A stretch of DNA of 64,000 nucleotides, from the IMG/VR virus record IMGVR_UViG_3300004463_001172, positions 1-64,000 of that record; one strand, 5' to 3'. The notes under the pieces were generated by a model that did no database searches, had not been told where the DNA came from, and saw only the letters and a list, made by a program, of their open reading frames with translations. Positions 1 through 6,800 of the stretch are shown here, piece after piece (position 1 is the stretch's first letter; each line of letters begins with the position of its first letter). This DNA is from a virus. The position numbers were made by a program, and so were the translations under genes.

Positions 1-570
1 ATGGCATATCAATCCCAGAAATACCGACTTACCGGCGTGGCACCCATGATCCTTCACAATGGGCAAACACGCGACCCACTCAACGTATTTTCCAAAGCCT
101 TGAAGAAGGTCTCCGGCAAGCGCAACAAGACCGACGCTGACTACGAAGAGATGGCAAAGATTGAATTTTTTGCGTCGGTCTATCTCTCTGATGGGAAAGT
201 CTGTCTGCCTGGAGAAAACCTGGAGCGTATGCTCCTTGATGCCGCTCGTAAGATGAAGCTTGGAAAACAGGTTCAGGCTGGTGTGTTTTGTCCTGGAGTT
301 GCATTTATCGAGTATGATGGTCCTCAGACGGTTGAGGATCTGTGGGAAGATGAGCGGTTTCGCTTTACACATGCTGTGAAAGTGAATGGTTCTGCGATCA
401 TGCGAACCCGTGCTCGGTTTGATCAGTGGTCTTTTGTGATGGAGGTCCGATATGACCCGGAGATGATTGACCTTGGGCAACTGCACCAGATTATGACCAT
501 TGCTGCTGATGCGATTGGGTGTGGGGAGTGGCGACCGAAGTTTGGGCGCTTCGAGGTTCAACCGCTGTAA
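1..570 (+). CDS. Stand-alone Cas7/RAMP-like RNA-binding protein (189 aa)
   Basis: RAMP-like motifs: beta1 YRLTGVAPMILHN, LPGENLERMLLDAA (cf. the iPgssikG.lr motif of RAMPs), C-terminal Gly-rich loop IGCGEWRPKFGRFEV; no other cas genes in the window. Confidence 0.8.
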   Translation: MAYQSQKYRLTGVAPMILHNGQTRDPLNVFSKALKKVSGKRNKTDADYEEMAKIEFFASVYLSDGKVCLPGENLERMLLDAARKMKLGKQVQAGVFCPGVAFIEYDGPQTVEDLWEDERFRFTHAVKVNGSAIMRTRARFDQWSFVMEVRYDPEMIDLGQLHQIMTIAADAIGCGEWRPKFGRFEVQPL

Positions 571-686
571 CAGGGCTTGGCATGGCACGGATCGCCTGGG
601 CAGGGATCGGAGCGGCGCGGACTGGCTTAGCGGTGACCGGCACGGCCTGACTCGACGCGACAGGGATTGGCTTGGCATGGGTTTTT
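571..686 (+). ncRNA. Pentamer-periodic array 1 (22 units of GGM-NN), putative guide RNA
   Basis: Triplets in exact 5-nt phase from 574 to 679: 10 GGC, 5 GGA, 1 GGG, 3 GAC, 3 other; ends GGCATGGGTTTTT. The repeat is certain, the RNA role is inferred. Confidence 0.8.
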
Positions 687-711
687 CTTGCCGTCTTAAT
701 TGATTAATATT

Positions 712-813
712 TAACATGGCGTGGCATGGATAAGAAGTGACTGGACCGGCAAGGCATCCAAGGGCATGGCAGTGAACGGCATTGCATGGCACGTCACGGA
801 ATGGCATGGGTTT
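712..813 (+). ncRNA. Pentamer-periodic array 2 (19 units of GGM-NN), putative guide RNA
   Basis: Triplets in 5-nt phase from 718 to 808, 13 of 19 start with GG; starts TAACAT-GGC and ends GGCATGGGTTT like array 1. Confidence 0.8.
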
Positions 814-814
814 C

Positions 815-958
815 CTACCGTAAGAGAAGTAGCACTAGTGCAATAATCACGAGCAATCCAAGTAATCCACTGGGGCCATACCCATATTTATGTAGGCCCC
901 AGTGAGGGGCAGACCCAAACATGAGTAGTATTAAGATGATTAAGGCGACGAGTAACAT
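815..958 (-). CDS. Small membrane protein, DUF3309-like (47 aa)
   Basis: MLLVALIILILLMFGSAPHWGLHKYGYGPSGLLGLLVIIALVLLLLR; GGAGA RBS before ATG 958. Confidence 0.75.
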   Translation of the reverse strand: MLLVALIILILLMFGSAPHWGLHKYGYGPSGLLGLLVIIALVLLLLR

Positions 959-966
959 CGTGTCTC

Positions 967-1140
967 CTACGCTATTGTCTCTCGTTTGGCGTCGACTTGC
1001 TCTTCTAGCGCTTGCTGAGACGCGCCCCGCAGCCCCTTCCAATTGATCTCTGCGCCTCGGCCTTCGCGAATGGCCTCAAGCACCCATGGCGCATTGGCTT
1101 GTACTAGCGCTAGTAATTGGATAATGAGTTGGATTTCCAC
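967..1140 (-). CDS. Hypothetical protein (~57 aa), overlaps the lipoprotein gene
   Basis: GTG start after GGAGG; amphipathic VEIQLIIQLLALV. Confidence 0.5.
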   Translation of the reverse strand: MEIQLIIQLLALVQANAPWVLEAIREGRGAEINWKGLRGASQQALEEQVDAKRETIA

Positions 1141-1466
1141 GGTGGTCCCTCCACCTGCTCGGCAATGGTCATCAGGATACAGAGTTGGCGCTGCATGATG
1201 AGCGCCTGCGATAGGTCTGATTTCCCGGCTTCTGCTGCCGTCAGATAGGCATCCTGACTCTGCGCCCATCGCGCATAGGCCTTCCGTGCGATGTCCAAGT
1301 TTTCCGGCGGGAGTGTGCCCTGTTGCGCCGCGCCATAGATCGTGCGATAGAGGTGCTCGGCGGTCGTTTTACTCATCTGCGCATACTCCTGCCGCGCCTG
1401 CGGCCCTGAAGCCGCACAACCAATCACGAGGCCTACACTGAGGAGGATGAGTGCCATCCGTTTCAT
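1110..1466 (-). CDS. Lipoprotein (possible spanin-like lysis component)
   Basis: Signal peptide with lipobox LVIG-C. Confidence 0.6.
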   Translation of the reverse strand: MKRMALILLSVGLVIGCAASGPQARQEYAQMSKTTAEHLYRTIYGAAQQGTLPPENLDIARKAYARWAQSQDAYLTAAEAGKSDLSQALIMQRQLCILMTIAEQVEGPPWKSNSLSNY

Positions 1467-1475
1467 AGAGAATCC

Positions 1476-1751
1476 CTAGTCCTCGCTGGCATCCAGTAAC
1501 GGGTTGGGTCCATGCTCCATGGGTGGCAAGGGCTGCGCCATCTGAGGAGCAGGATCACGGTCTGGGATCTGGCGGGGTTCGACCCGCGCATGTCCTTTAG
1601 CCTGGCCTTCGCGATAGGCGGCTTCTGTGCGCGACTCCTCGAAGATGGCTGCCCAGACCTCATCGCTGATGTCGAGGTACTCGACGCTCTCCCCGTACTT
1701 CGTCACCAGGTAGCAGCCATCGTCTGGACACATGGGGCCTCTCCCTTTCAC
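1476..1751 (-). CDS. Hypothetical protein
   Basis: ORF packed in the operon, overlapping the upstream stop. Confidence 0.45.
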   Translation of the reverse strand: MKGRGPMCPDDGCYLVTKYGESVEYLDISDEVWAAIFEESRTEAAYREGQAKGHARVEPRQIPDRDPAPQMAQPLPPMEHGPNPLLDASED

Positions 1752-2479
1752 TGAATTTTCATGATTAACACCACAATTCCACCTATCACCCCGACCGCAG
1801 AGATAATGCCGAACATCAGGGCAATCATGGCCCCCTGGCCGATGGTTCGCCCTTCGCCGCGATCCCCTCGGGTGCGCTCGCCAGTGATTTGTGGGAGCAA
1901 TTCCGCGCGCAGCGCCGCAATCGCGGCTTCCGACCGGAGGGCCACGGAATTAATGGCAGCTTCCAATCGGTCTTTCAAATCGGTGATTTTGCTATCTAAG
2001 GACTGACTGACCGTATGCCCCTGAAGCCCGAGCTGGTCGATTTGCTTGGCAAACGCCACCTCGGATTTTTCCACCGCTTCTTTGGCGGAACTGAGGGCCG
2101 CTGCCGTAGAGCGCATCTGCGCGGCGAGGGCGGTATCCAGGGCCGTTTTGGCGTCGTTGGACCCTTGCTCAAAGCGCTTATCGCGTTCGAGGAGCCGACC
2201 TTCCACGCTGTGAAACTTTTCCAGATACACCGCCGCCAGTGCCGCGAGCTTTTGATCGATCTCCGAGGGCAACCGCTCGGCTTGGCGTTGCAGCAGCTCC
2301 GTGGCTTTCTCCGTGCCATCCAGCTGCATGCTGATCTTGGCATCGAGTGCCTTGATCTGGCCCTCCAAGATTTCACGCAGGCCGGCAATTTCCCGCTGCA
2401 GCGACAGGGTGGTCAGCCGTGTCGGATCGGGCCGCGGGGTCCACTCCCCGTCGCGGTCTTCTGGCTGTTCCTCGCTCAT
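1748..2479 (-). CDS. Coiled-coil protein with C-terminal transmembrane anchor
   Basis: Heptad-rich body; C-terminal MIALMFGIISAVGVIGGIVVLIMK. Confidence 0.7.
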   Translation of the reverse strand: MSEEQPEDRDGEWTPRPDPTRLTTLSLQREIAGLREILEGQIKALDAKISMQLDGTEKATELLQRQAERLPSEIDQKLAALAAVYLEKFHSVEGRLLERDKRFEQGSNDAKTALDTALAAQMRSTAAALSSAKEAVEKSEVAFAKQIDQLGLQGHTVSQSLDSKITDLKDRLEAAINSVALRSEAAIAALRAELLPQITGERTRGDRGEGRTIGQGAMIALMFGIISAVGVIGGIVVLIMKIQ

Positions 2480-2823
2480 TCGGATGCGTCCTCATGGCCA
2501 GCGGTGATATGCTCACGGAAGATCCGCCAGCATTGCCAGCTACAGCCGAGGAGGCCCCAACCCCCGATATTGGTCAGCATAATGCGGGCGGGCACACTCA
2601 AGAGCACCTGGACCAGCAGGGAACTCTCGGCGGTGAGGCCACTGAGCACCAGGGCATTCCGCAGAAAGAGGATACCAATACTGACGTTCGTCAGCATGAG
2701 GCCGATCCAGGCCAGCCGCCAGTTGCGATACCGGCCGGCCGGCACGTACAACAGCCGGAGCGCAAAGAAGAGACTGCCGAGCATCCACAGGACTGGCCCC
2801 CAGGCCATGAGGATCCACATCAT
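2476..2823 (-). CDS. Multi-pass membrane protein (holin-like candidate)
   Basis: About 3 hydrophobic segments; ATGA-coupled to its neighbours. Confidence 0.55.
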   Translation of the reverse strand: MMWILMAWGPVLWMLGSLFFALRLLYVPAGRYRNWRLAWIGLMLTNVSIGILFLRNALVLSGLTAESSLLVQVLLSVPARIMLTNIGGWGLLGCSWQCWRIFREHITAGHEDASE

Positions 2824-3338
2824 GGGTGCGTCCGTCCACAGAGGATTGCCCACCAGCGTCTCCACCACGGCTCGTCGACAACGGACGTGGTCTCCTGTTC
2901 GCGTTCCTGGCGTTGACGGCGCCGGACATGTCGACGGCCATCCAGCATGGCTAAATACAGCGTGGCCGCGAGGGCTTCAGAGAAGTCTTCGCGCCGCGAC
3001 CCGCGTTTGGCCCGTTCGTAAATGGCCCGAATGCCAGCCGTCAGTTCGACTAATTCGGCATCAGTGAGGCTGTCCGGATCCCGCCGATATTTCTCGATAT
3101 GGGCGTCGAGCCCCTCGGCATCGGTATCTTGATGAAACATGTCGGCCAGCCGCTTATCCATCACGGTCAGCAATGGATTGAGCCGGAGCTTGAGGAGTTC
3201 CACCTCATTCTTGAGCGCACTAAAGGCTTGCTGGCTGTCTTTCGTGCGGCCCTGCAGCCGCACCATTTCGGTGCGGATGGCGACGTAGAGGGCGACACTG
3301 ACGCCGAGCGGCGCGACATACCGGAGCCACTCATCCAT
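2820..3338 (-). CDS. Membrane-anchored hypothetical protein
   Basis: N-terminal TM segment followed by coiled coil. Confidence 0.6.
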   Translation of the reverse strand: MDEWLRYVAPLGVSVALYVAIRTEMVRLQGRTKDSQQAFSALKNEVELLKLRLNPLLTVMDKRLADMFHQDTDAEGLDAHIEKYRRDPDSLTDAELVELTAGIRAIYERAKRGSRREDFSEALAATLYLAMLDGRRHVRRRQRQEREQETTSVVDEPWWRRWWAILCGRTHP

Positions 3339-3837: not shown

Positions 3838-6800
3838 TTAGTATCCACCCGGCAGTGTGGCATCGACTACGCCTAACCTGTTGGCAAAGCCTACGCAGGA
3901 ATTGGCGGGTGTGTCATTCAGGCCGGCCACGATCGCGCCGCAACCCCGGAAATATCGCTGAAAACTGGTGCCAGAATAGCCGCTGGGTGGTGTGGTGACC
4001 CACAGTTTCGTGGTGGTCAAGACGCCGTTCTGATACGCGAATATAATCTCTGCGCCCGTGGTGAGCCCGGTCCAGACGGTCTTCGCGCCAATCGACGGAT
4101 TGGTGGTCACGACGTTGGTACAGTTGCCACACACGCCCCCCATGGCAGAGCTATAGTTGGTGCCATTACCGAAGATGCGCAAGCCATCTAAGCTCCAGAC
4201 ATCAGCGGTGATGCCGAGCGCCGTCCCAGGATTATTGACGAGGAGAATATCTTCGCCAAACCAACTAAAGAACGCCGAATCGGGCATCACCGAGGGTTTT
4301 TTGGTGTATAAGGCGGTTTTCCCTAAACCGGCCCCAATGATAGTACTCCGCCGCACCAGCGTATTTTCGTTGGCTGAATATTGCAGGCCCGCTGCCCCGC
4401 CGGGGGTGGTTGAGAGTCCTACCACGAGCATATGGTCGATGGTATTATCTAGCGGTCGAGAGCCTGGATCACTTTCATTGGTGGGATTCGCAGGGTGAAT
4501 ACTCATACCAATCAAGGTGTCATAGGCGATATTGCCTAACCAATGGTTATCGTGGCAATGTTTCCCGCTCGTGCGGGTATAGGAGGCACAGCTAAACCCG
4601 GTCGCATTGGTTGGATTCGCCCAGATATGATCCGCGATATTGTTTTCTACGATCCAATTCGCGGCGGGATAGAGCGCATAGGCGGTGTGGCCAACTCCAC
4701 TGGCGCAGTTATCTTCTTTTCCAGAGGAGCTACGATCATGGGCGTAATTCCGCCGCATGATCCCTCCGCTGTTGTATTTCACCACTGGATGGTCGCGTAA
4801 GCTGCCGTAAAACTCATTCTCTTCAATCAGCGCGTTGTCGCTATTATCCCGAATGGCCAACGGCGCACTGGTGCAATCAGAATCGCCCGGCACGGCGAGA
4901 AAAATATTGCGGCGCACCGTCGTATTTGGAGAGTATTTAATGTCTGTGTTGTATCCGGTGGTGCCAATGATATCATCATCGCCACTGAGCGATGTGCGGG
5001 CCCAGACAATGCCCTCAATTTTCCAGTTCGAGCAATTCCAGAGCTTCAGCGCGTTTTTCCCAACACCCGTTGCATTGACCCGTGCTGCCCGCTCGTTCTT
5101 GGCTTTAAGGACAACGGGCTGTGCGGCCGTGCCATTCGTATAGCCTGTCGTACAGTCGATGTTGGGTAAGCCGGTGGTGGCGTCGGTATAGACACCATCC
5201 GCGAGTTGCACCGTATAGCCTTTGAGCGCCTTCTTCAGCGTATAGGCAAAGGTCTTACAGGGGGTGCCTTCCGTTTGACAGTTATTGGCCGAGCCATCCG
5301 ATCCGCTGGGGCTCATATAGAGGGTTGTCCCCGCCGCAGGGGTACTGGTGGCCTGTGCAGCGGAGGCACTGTCGCCACTGAGCCCGGCTTGATCGATGCC
5401 CCGCATGCGCACGTTATAGGTGGTCGCTGGGGTGAGGCCACTCAAGCCGATGTTACACACGCCGCCGGTCGCGACCGTCACGCTGCTACAGGACACCCCA
5501 GACGCCCCGCAGACAAACGCCGCGCCCACGGTGCCTGTGCTATAGCCCGCTTGGCACTGACAGGGCGGTGAGCCGGTTTCGGTGCAGGTGGAGGAGGCCG
5601 AGAACCCACCCGTGGTGATGTTGGTAAAGCTCACGGTCCCCATGACTGGCGCAGTGGTATCGGCTGGGGTCGACATGATGGTGGAGGAAATCTTCGCAAT
5701 GCCAGCATTGGCGATGCTGAGGCTGGCACCTCGAAAATACTGATAGGTGGCTGAACTCCCAGTGACTTGCTCCTGAATCAGCCCGTTAAAGAGGATATAG
5801 GTATCGGGGACTAAGGTTTCTGTGGGCTCAATAAAGCCTTCAATGACCAGGTTATTGGCGCTGTAAATCGCCGTGCAGCGCCCGCTCCCAGCGAAGTCGT
5901 AGGCTTTATCCGACACGCCACTCGGATAATTGGCATCCCAGACAAACCCCCCATTATCACAACTGAATTTGTAGGTGCTGGCGTCGAGCACTTTATTCAA
6001 ATTTACGAAGCGGAACAACATCTCCACCCGATTGCCCACGAGCGAGCCATCATCGCCGGTGTTCGTGGTGGGCGCTAAACTGGCGAGCGTGACGCCGGTT
6101 TTAAAGTAAATCCGATTCGTACTATCCTTCCAGGCCATGCGCGTGACCCATATGCCCGTGGGTGGCACCGCGCTGGTGTTGCCCGTCATGGCGATAGCGT
6201 TGGCCTGAGTCCAATAGGCATCTGAGATGCCATCGGCATTGGGACTGTTGGCGCCAAACTCTTTGACGAGATAATCTTCGGTGATGCCCCCGCCGCCAGA
6301 GGGACACTGTGGGACGGCGGTGGATGAGGTGTGGAAGAACAAGCAATCGATGCGTAGCCCGGCTTTCGCGACCAAATGGAGTTGATCGCCGGTGGCGACG
6401 ACAAATGCCGTCTGCGGTGTGCCATTGAGCCCGTTTTTGGCATTCTCCAGCGTGCCAGCCCGCCCCAAGGGGAGCCAAGTCCAGCCACTGGTGGGCAGCC
6501 CCGAGTTGAGCGTGTTTAACTCGCGGTTATCGGGGGGATTTTTAAAGGGGGTCGTGCCAATCGTGGTCCACAGGCCGGCCGCGCTACTGGTGGGAATATC
6601 GACTAAGGCCCAGCCGTAGTAGGTGCCGGCGGTGAGCCCCGCTTGCGCGATCTCGCCAGCAAAGGGATTGCCGCCAATGGCAATGCGGACAAAGGCGGAG
6701 CCATTCGCCGTAGTGTCGGTGACTTGTTCCCACTCCCCACTCCTGAGCAGATTTTCGGCTTGGGCGGCAAAGCCTCCACCGGCGGCGGCAAAGGCGGGTC

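What the first reader, a model, noticed from the sequence alone, without database searches (positions are those of the whole stretch)
568..813. The two arrays share 5' and 3' boundary motifs, behaving like discrete guide cassettes
Both begin TAACA(G/T)-GGC (568 and 712) and end GGC-AT-GGG-TTT, and they are separated by an AT-rich ~30-nt linker. The internal dinucleotides differ almost entirely. Conserved ends with variable cores and no indels argue for selection on register, not microsatellite slippage.
Basis: seen in the sequence. Interest (0 to 1): 0.75.

Follow-up and report, generated by a model that had tools for sequence, protein, structure and literature searches.

The report
Phage VIPR guide-RNA genes (known system)
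The two five-base-periodic arrays are guide-RNA genes (vrRNAs) of a phage VIPR system, a CRISPR-related RNA-guided DNA-binding system first described in 2026, sitting right after the gene of their Cas7-like Vipr protein; it is real and tidy, but it belongs to a published family.

Summary
Window 571-680 and 715-809 are 22 and 19 in-register pentamers [C/A]-N-N-G-G. Both start TAACA(G/T)GGC and both end GGCATGGGTTT. A 27-nt linker (74% A+T) separates them, and their NN dinucleotides agree only at chance level.

The arrays begin one base after the stop codon of a 189-aa ORF (1-570). That ORF folds as a minimal Cas7/Csm3-like RAMP and is homologous to the characterised Vipr of Escherichia phage SUSP1. 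It keeps the residues that grip the two G's.

In 166 related loci I found 269 such arrays on the vipr strand and 5 on the other.

Local peculiarities:
- The third scaffold base is C or A, never T.
- The arrays are long.
- No structured tail is predicted.
- The HNH accessory gene seen next to vipr in most relatives would lie just outside the record.

I found no targets for these two guides, and RNA data could not be reached. A third, GGT-type solo array elsewhere in the same genome decodes to the most conserved stretch of rival vipr genes.

This scan has already reported VIPR loci in many other genomes. Verdict: new member of a known kind.

The parts
1..570 (+). vipr gene: 189-aa minimal RAMP (Cas7/Csm3-like) protein, phrog_4652
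   Evidence: ORF. It has no Pfam family and matches phrog_4652 at E=2e-46. The AF2 model has pLDDT 95. VIA-align gives Z 10-11.8 to Csm3 and Cas7 chains of type III, VII and III-E over residues 1-189; Foldseek agrees. The family profile hits SUSP1 Vipr (ALH47069) at E=3.4e-50, and pairwise BLASTP gives 31% identity, E=1e-31. The GG-contact residues of SUSP1 (H17, K33, R138, D177, W178, R179) align to H19, K35, R137, E176, W177, R178.
3..140 (+). Frame open at the 5' edge of the record; possibly the 3' end of an upstream HNH accessory (vap) gene cut off by the provirus boundary (inferred)
   Evidence: The 5'-open ORF 3..140 is listed. An HNH gene (PF01844) ends within -120..+150 nt of the vipr start, on the same strand, in 104 of 147 related loci. 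The C-terminus of the L059 HNH protein aligns to window nt 3-50 (62% over 16 aa, E=0.16). This is weak evidence and not independent of vipr homology.
571..680 (+). vrRNA1 repeat tract: 22 pentamers [C/A]NNGG; the first unit follows the vipr stop codon (568-570) directly
   Evidence: Decoded NN string.
681..714 (+). 3' boundary of vrRNA1 (G + T-run), the 27-nt AT-rich linker, and the TAA before vrRNA2
   Evidence: No sigma-70-like promoter or intrinsic terminator was called here. No Rfam match.
715..809 (+). vrRNA2 repeat tract: 19 pentamers [C/A]NNGG, rich in the unit CATGG (5 of 19)
810..850 (+). 3' boundary (GTTT) and presumed short tail of vrRNA2; it overlaps the end of a convergent DUF3309 gene (815-958, minus strand)
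   Evidence: The shared stretch after the last GG is G-TTT..C.T.CCGT, read. No stable structure is predicted: the fold z-score of 560-910 is +1.6.

Best explanation
Window 1-813 is a VIPR (Viral Interference Programmable Repeat) locus of a temperate phage. It holds the vipr gene followed by two vrRNA genes.

By analogy with the characterised SUSP1 system, the proposed mechanism is as follows:
- The arrays are transcribed on the vipr strand, probably as a read-through of the vipr mRNA, since array 1 starts one base after the stop codon.
- Vipr protomers polymerise along each RNA, one per pentamer. Each protomer grips the two G's and the following base and presents the two variable bases.
- The 22 and 19 NN pairs then read double-stranded DNA with one base skipped between pairs (NNxNNx...), giving footprints of about 65 and 56 bp.
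- The result is silencing of the bound gene or, if the HNH partner seen in relatives is present upstream, cutting of it.

Shown here: the anatomy, the fold, the homology, the conserved contact residues, the family-wide linkage of gene and arrays, and the absence of self-targets.

Inferred from the papers: RNA expression and ends, filament formation and the DNA-reading rule for these two guides.

Local differences: the scaffold here is GG[C/A] rather than GGY, and no structured tail or ribozyme separates the guides.
For: (1) Protein. The ORF has a RAMP fold with a beta-hairpin thumb (strands 121-128 and 131-140) and the C-terminal G-loop GCGEWRPKFGRF. It is homologous to the experimentally studied SUSP1 Vipr. 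Five of the six GG- and backbone-contact residues named in the cryo-EM paper are identical, and the sixth is a D-to-E change.

(2) RNA genes. The period-5 GG phasing is far beyond chance. The NN positions agree only at chance level between the arrays. The region is predicted to be less structured than shuffles of it (z=+1.6), as expected for a protein-coated single strand.

(3) Linkage. Across 166 loci encoding relatives (858 kb) there are 269 arrays on the vipr strand and 5 on the opposite strand. 125 loci have at least one array. The first array starts a median of 15 nt after the stop codon.

(4) Published mechanism for the family.

(5) No self-target. Best own-genome matches are 26/44 and 23/38, at the level of shuffled guides. 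The paper reports the same for its systems.

(6) Independent support for the one-base-skip code in this genome. A third array, outside the window, matches one site of vipr genes under skip 1 only (28/34). Skips 0, 2 and 3 give 22-23, and none of 600 shuffles exceeds 25. All 24 hits of 24 or more lie in codon frame with the skipped base at the wobble position.
Against: No natural target was found for either guide. Four seed scans of viral contigs (10- and 8-unit seeds, all from array 1) gave no hits or only chance-level extensions of at most 27/44, and a mismatch-tolerant scan of both guides over about 1 Mb of fetched loci gave nothing.

6 of 22 and 6 of 19 units lack GG, so some decay is possible, although the paper calls internal degeneracy frequent.

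No accessory gene is visible because the record starts at the vipr ATG.

The conserved structured 3' tail of type II vrRNAs is not evident.

A at the third scaffold position conflicts with the purine-excluding pocket described for SUSP1, so loading rules here are inferred, not shown.
Confidence: 0.84

Rival explanations
1. It is a decaying or disarmed VIPR remnant at the edge of a prophage. The gene and arrays are of VIPR origin, but the guides are degenerate and no longer direct anything.
For: 27-32% of units lack GG. Array 2 is low in information, with CATGG in 5 of 19 units. No target was found. The partner HNH gene is not in the record.
Against: The vipr ORF is intact and keeps the invariant and contact residues. 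The register is unbroken over 110 and 95 nt, whereas neutral decay would bring indels. Position 1 of all 41 units is still C or A. The published systems also show internal degeneracy. A failed target search with exact seeds in one collection is weak evidence.
Confidence: 0.1
2. The arrays are decoy or sponge RNAs rather than guides for the phage's own use. They would soak up or misdirect Vipr proteins, their own or a rival's, as the solo vrRNAs of SUSP1 satellites do.
For: The third paper shows vrRNAs used to redirect another element's Vipr. This genome also carries a solo array of another scaffold type aimed at rival vipr genes.
Against: The arrays sit directly behind their own vipr gene, the standard arrangement in 90 of 139 loci. 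Their GG[C/A] scaffold is shared with the nearest Vipr relatives (L059, L060), which also share a small G-loop residue. This argues that they are matched to this protein.
Confidence: 0.05
3. It is not an RNA-guide element at all: a microsatellite or slippage product, a coding repeat, or a DNA-level site such as a G-quadruplex tract, a packaging site or an origin.
For: GG every 5 nt could in principle form two-tier G-quadruplexes. ORFs of 41-67 aa overlap the arrays.
Against: Slippage would give identical units, not fixed GG with free NN. A period of 5 cannot keep a reading frame. The strand bias is 269 to 5 and the arrays are linked to a RAMP gene across 166 loci. A DNA-level site would not be strand-specific relative to the gene.
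Confidence: 0.01

Closest known systems
VIPR type II of Escherichia phage SUSP1 (vipr ALH47069, vap1 ALH47068, four vrRNAs); bioRxiv 10.64898/2026.04.26.720920, .720927 and 10.64898/2026.10.15.759431
   Same: Both have a small RAMP protein (31% identical, E=1e-31) with the same GG-contact residues. Both have period-5 arrays with fixed GG and free NN on the gene's strand. The last unit is followed by an extra G in both (ATGGG-T in both). Both are phage-borne.
   Different: The third scaffold base is C/A here and T/C in SUSP1. This locus has 22 and 19 units against 9-16 reported. There is no vap1 homologue in the genome, and the arrays follow vipr directly rather than following vap1. The 5' hairpin handle and 3' pseudoknot tail of SUSP1 are not found here.
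Nuclease-associated VIPR types (types III-V of the discovery paper; HNH-domain vap shown in its fig. S21)
   Same: In the Vipr clade of this window an HNH gene sits immediately upstream of, and often overlapping, vipr in 104 of 147 loci, including the two nearest relatives.
   Different: The HNH gene cannot be seen here because the record begins at the vipr ATG. The paper describes nuclease types as enriched in cellular defence islands, whereas 54 of the loci I fetched, and this one, are viral or proviral records. I could not assign a type number because the paper's figures and tables are not held.
Class 1 CRISPR backbone: Cas7/Csm3 filament on crRNA
   Same: The fold is the same (Z about 11 over the whole protein). 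Both work as a one-protomer-per-repeat filament in which a thumb flips bases at a fixed period.
   Different: The period is 5 nt, not 6. Three of every five guide bases are sequestered, so pairing is gapped. There is no CRISPR repeat-spacer array and no Cas6, Cas5 or Cas10 nearby. The guides are hard-wired genes, not acquired spacers.
Solo (orphan) vrRNAs that target rival vipr genes in SUSP1-like phages (third VIPR paper, section read)
   Same: The third array of this genome (outside the window) is a stand-alone vrRNA. Its one-base-skip reading matches vipr genes of other lineages (up to 82%) and matches its own phage's vipr poorly (53%).
   Different: Here the carrier phage also has its own vipr, of another scaffold type. 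The phage is unrelated to SUSP1 (terminase at most 49% identical to any GenBank phage). The solo array follows a CopG-type ribbon-helix-helix gene inside the head-gene module.

Membership tests
VIPR system | Vipr protein: single-RRM RAMP with thumb hairpin and glycine-rich loop | tested here: met
   AF2 pLDDT 95. Z 10-11.8, rmsd 3.0-4.0 A, 133-156 residues aligned to Csm3 and Cas7 chains across residues 1-189. G-loop GCGEWRPKFGRF and a beta-hairpin at 121-140.
VIPR system | Sequence homology to an experimentally characterised Vipr | tested here: met
   Profile of 43 relatives against the SUSP1 genome: a single hit on ALH47069, E=3.4e-50. BLASTP gives 31% identity, E=1e-31.
VIPR system | Residues that hold G1 and G2 and contact the target backbone (SUSP1 H17, D177, R138, W178, R179, K33) | tested here: met
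   They align to H19, E176 (a conservative change), R137, W177, R178 and K35. These are invariant or nearly invariant in the family.
VIPR system | Tandem pentamers with fixed GG plus pyrimidine (GGY) and two free bases, at least 4 units, next to vipr on its strand | tested here: met
   22 and 19 units start 1 nt and 145 nt after the stop codon. The third base is C/A, not C/T. The paper allows related consensus forms such as NNNGG.
VIPR system | NN positions hypervariable while the scaffold is kept | tested here: met
   NN identity between the two arrays is 21-24%, against 63% for the scaffold. The arrays of L059 and L060 carry different NN strings on the same scaffold.
VIPR system | Invariable, structured 3' tail after the repeat tract | tested here: inconclusive
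   Only a short shared stretch (GGG-TTT, then ..CCGT) follows both arrays. No stable fold is predicted and there is no Rfam match. GGCATGGGTTT recurs in L060. Tails differ between VIPR types according to the paper.
VIPR system | Accessory vap gene in the operon | tested here: inconclusive
   None lies downstream, where the genes are convergent. Upstream is outside the record. An HNH gene is adjacent in 104 of 147 relatives.
VIPR system | Arrays expressed as discrete RNAs of about 100 nt that co-purify with Vipr | not testable with these tools
VIPR system | Guides match natural targets under the one-base-skip rule (at least 80% of NN) and do not match their own genome | tested here: inconclusive
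   No self-match above the shuffled-guide level. No external target for vrRNA1 or vrRNA2 was found with the limited searches possible. The rule does hold for the third array of the same genome (82%, skip 1 only).
CRISPR-Cas (class 1) | Repeat-spacer array of 25-40-nt repeats plus a multi-gene cas operon | tested here: not met
   Tandem-repeat and direct reading show only the pentamer tracts near the gene. Neighbouring genes are phage lysis and tail genes on the other strand. Only one RAMP gene is found in the 109-kb genome.

The most novel reading that the evidence does not exclude
The third scaffold base may work as a compatibility code between Vipr lineages. This phage's own Vipr, which has a small Cys in place of the bulky G-loop residue that helps exclude purines in SUSP1, would load only GG[C/A] guides. 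Its separate GGT-type solo vrRNA would then be a Trojan horse: loaded by a rival phage's GGY-type Vipr and turned against the most conserved stretch of that rival's own vipr gene. The carrier would be immune on both counts, by scaffold mismatch and by a diverged target site (53% match).
Probability: 0.2. Interest if true: 0.55.

Novelty: new member of a known kind. Interest (0 to 1): 0.3.

Why it matters
It adds one more well-resolved natural VIPR locus from an uncultured temperate phage unrelated to the model phage. It also shows how far the published rules stretch:
- Guides of 19-22 units here, and up to 60 units in relatives.
- A C/A (and elsewhere pure A) third scaffold base, where the structural paper describes a purine-excluding pocket.
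- No structured tail.
- An HNH partner in most relatives of viral origin.

These are useful boundary cases for anyone building vrRNA callers or engineering VIPR. The anti-vipr solo guide suggests that the VIPR-against-VIPR warfare reported for Enterobacteriaceae phages is general. None of this changes the basic picture established in 2026.

Tried and rejected
TRAP-like or other non-guide periodic RNA-binding scaffold: this was my first guess. I dropped it once the RAMP fold and the VIPR papers were in hand.

Rfam: nothing relevant in window 1-3000 at E up to 10, and nothing at gathering score in 20 related loci. The inter-array hairpins that looked like tRNA T-arms or hammerhead cores are therefore unconfirmed. 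No tRNA or tmRNA in the window.

Consensus promoter and terminator scan of 300-1100: one weak promoter-like site inside vipr (467-494), none in the linker, and no terminator.

Target hunting. The own genome gave nothing above shuffled guides. Two 10-unit exact patterns of vrRNA1 gave 0 hits in viral contigs. Two 8-unit seeds gave 17 and 4 hits, all extending only to chance level, at most 27/44. About 1 Mb of fetched loci gave no hit for vrRNA1 or vrRNA2. Two patterns of the third array gave 0 exact hits in viral contigs.

Peptide decoding of vrRNA1 (antisense) points to the C-terminus of an own 379-aa protein at G000 83.6-84.7 kb (26/44 at DNA level; peptide score 49 against shuffles 39.3 +/- 3.4, maximum 50). 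That is at the edge of the null. That C-terminal region has no detectable homologues and no Pfam family, so the lead could not be tested.

Host: not determined.

Single-protein scans for close relatives found none in viral or metagenome contigs; profile scans were needed.

No supplementary files of the discovery paper are held, so the VIPR type number could not be assigned.

Full report
**What is there**

The window is the first 64 kb of a 109-kb IMG/VR provirus record. It opens with an ATG-started ORF of 189 aa (1-570, plus strand).

One base after its TAA stop codon begins a tract of 22 pentamers (571-680). After a 27-nt linker that is 74% A+T comes a second tract of 19 pentamers (715-809). 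Each unit reads [C/A]-N-N-G-G.
- GG is present in 16 of 22 and 13 of 19 units.
- The first base is C or A in all 41 units and never T or G.
- There is no indel in either tract.
- The two tracts are out of register with each other.

TAACAGGGC is at 568 and TAACATGGC at 712. GGCATGGGTTT is at 674-684 and 803-813. Against a GG frequency of 7.7%, the in-phase counts have binomial P of 7e-14 and 6e-11. No shuffle of the region, no other period, and only one other place in the genome comes near them. The NN positions of the two arrays agree at 21-24%, which is chance, while the scaffold agrees at 63%.

**The protein**

The ORF has no Pfam family but belongs to phrog_4652, of unknown function. An alignment of 43 relatives shows a conserved C-terminal G-rich loop (consensus GLGDWRPKFGRF) and an invariant Arg in a hairpin.

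The AlphaFold model is confident (pLDDT 95). Its best structural matches are all Cas7-family backbone subunits (Csm3, type VII Cas7, Cas7-11 domains), with Z 10-11.8 over the full length.

**Linkage of gene and arrays**

I fetched 54 viral, 80 metagenomic and 30 genomic loci that encode relatives and scanned them with a simple period-5 GG caller.
- Including the window's own locus and the SUSP1 locus, the set is 166 loci (858 kb), which hold 269 arrays on the gene's strand and 5 on the other.
- 125 loci have at least one array.
- Where 300 nt of downstream sequence is available, 98 of 139 loci have a downstream array, and in 90 it starts within 150 nt of the stop codon (median 15 nt).
- Arrays run from 6 to 60 units, with a median of 13.

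The element is therefore a conserved, strand-specific partner of this gene.

**Identification**

A literature search turned up three 2026 preprints from one group describing exactly this:
- The VIPR system, made of a minimal RAMP called Vipr plus vrRNAs built of 9-16 YNNGG repeats with a 3' tail (10.64898/2026.04.26.720920).
- Cryo-EM structures showing one protomer per repeat. G1 is held by H17 and D177, G2 by R138 and W178, and the pyrimidine sits in a purine-excluding pocket. The NN bases pair with DNA while every third target base is skipped (10.64898/2026.04.26.720927).
- The biology of satellite silencing and of solo vrRNAs that target rival vipr genes (10.64898/2026.10.15.759431).

I checked membership rather than assuming it.
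- The profile of the window's family finds a single gene in the SUSP1 genome, the one flanked by the published arrays, at E=3.4e-50.
- Pairwise identity is 31%.
- The named contact residues align to H19, E176, R137, W177, R178 and K35.

This scan has also already followed up VIPR loci in many other genomes: 105 findings in at least 96 genomes match the search words.

**How this locus differs from the reference**

1. *Scaffold.* The third base is C/A here. Among 108 loci with enough units, 57 use C/T, 34 C and 8 T. Only the window, L059, L060 and (unreliably) L035 use A/C, and L012, L018 and L022 use A. At the G-loop position equivalent to SUSP1 residue 175, which is part of the pocket said to exclude purines, the three reliable A/C loci have Cys, Cys and Ala. 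All 98 C/T-type loci have Leu, Ile, Val or Phe (Fisher P=6e-6). The three loci form one clade, so this is a single evolutionary event, and the A-type loci keep Leu. The link between residue and base is an inference only.

2. *Length.* 22 and 19 units, against 9-16 reported.

3. *Ends.* No hairpin handle, pseudoknot tail or ribozyme is evident. The 560-910 RNA folds no better than shuffles (z=+1.6), and no promoter or terminator consensus lies in the linker. Co-transcription with vipr followed by cleavage in the AU-rich linker is my inference. The 3' motif GGCATGGGTTT recurs in the nearest locus, L060, and in SUSP1 the last unit is likewise followed by an extra G (ATGGGT). The 5' TAACA is not conserved, and for array 1 it is simply the stop codon.

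4. *Partner gene.* SUSP1's vap1 has no homologue in this genome. Instead an HNH endonuclease gene (PF01844) abuts or overlaps the vipr start in 104 of 147 relatives. Here the record begins at the vipr ATG, so it cannot be seen. A frame open at the 5' edge (3-140) is compatible with it but is not independent evidence.

**Targets**

Neither guide matches its own genome beyond shuffled-guide level, as the paper also reports for its systems. With only exact-pattern scans available I found no external target. That says little.

**A third array supports the code**

The genome-wide scan found one more array, outside the window at G000 66564-66635 on the minus strand. It has 17 units of TNNGG and fills the gap between a CopG-type ribbon-helix-helix gene and a head-morphogenesis gene.

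Read with one skipped base, it matches a single site in vipr genes of other lineages: codons of about 48-64, the ...ARLEWYGG.Y... stretch, which is the most conserved part of the protein.
- The best match is 28/34 (82%).
- 24 of 162 genes score at least 24, all in frame with the skip at the wobble position.
- Skips 0, 2 and 3 and the reversed guide give 22-23.
- None of 600 shuffles exceeds 25.
- The phage's own vipr scores 18/34.

The best-matched rivals use GGT or GGC scaffolds. This parallels the vipr-targeting solo vrRNAs reported in SUSP1-like phages. It is independent, in-genome evidence that period-5 arrays here are guides read by the published rule.

**Verdict**

This is a genuine VIPR locus and a new member of a known kind, with modest variant features. 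The guide interpretation is supported. Expression, processing, the partner nuclease and the targets of these two guides remain open.

Noticed in passing
G000:C1:66564-66635, minus strand (= L140:4565-4636), outside the window: A third period-5 array: 17 TNNGG units ending TAGGGGTTTT. It sits directly after a 51-aa CopG-type ribbon-helix-helix gene (L140:4632-4787, minus), between the portal and MuF-like head genes. Under the one-base-skip rule it matches the most conserved stretch of other lineages' vipr genes (up to 28/34; no shuffle exceeds 25) but matches its own vipr only 18/34. It is probably a solo anti-vipr vrRNA.
   Followed up: yes
L059:615-1031, L060:214-663 and 102 further loci: An HNH endonuclease gene abuts or overlaps the start of vipr in 104 of 147 related loci. 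In L059 and L061 an Arc-like RHH gene plus a further array precede it. In this Vipr clade HNH is therefore the usual partner, yet most of these loci are viral records.
   Followed up: partly
L012:3590-3970 and 4585-4730; L018:3800-3970, 4585-4775, 5235-5410; L022: Arrays built on GGA-NN (a purine at the third scaffold base) are separated by a conserved hairpin spacer (CCGCCGTC...GACGGCGG). This is at odds with the purine-excluding pocket described for SUSP1 Vipr.
   Followed up: partly
L008:4665-4730 and 4807-4870; L013:4920-4965: The spacers between arrays contain hairpins with a tRNA T-loop-like sequence (GTTCGAGTC or TGCAAGTC) inside a closing stem, suggesting tRNA-like processing signals. 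Rfam gave no match at gathering score.
   Followed up: partly
L013:4623-4919 and L014:2777-3073: Single uninterrupted arrays of 60 units (54 with GG), four times the length range given in the discovery paper.
   Followed up: no
G000:C1:83598-84737, minus strand (= L188:2599-3738), outside the window: The antisense peptide reading of vrRNA1 ([IM][KN][KN]LA[DE][RS]VGP...) best matches the C-terminus (..LRRLAKRVGTDAEVDVQ..) of a 379-aa protein of the same phage. The DNA match is 26/44 and the peptide score is at the upper edge of shuffles. This may be the phage's own diverged copy of the guide's target, or it may be chance. No homologues were found to test it.
   Followed up: partly
window 815-958, minus strand; hairpin 868-905: A convergent 47-aa DUF3309 membrane-protein gene ends two bases after the second array. 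A 10-bp GC-rich hairpin lies inside it with no U-run on either strand.
   Followed up: no
L058:2475-3062 (SUSP1 Vipr, KT454805.2): The GenBank protein has Val at residue 175, where the text of the cryo-EM preprint names T175 as a pocket residue. This is a numbering or construct difference and has no consequence here.
   Followed up: no
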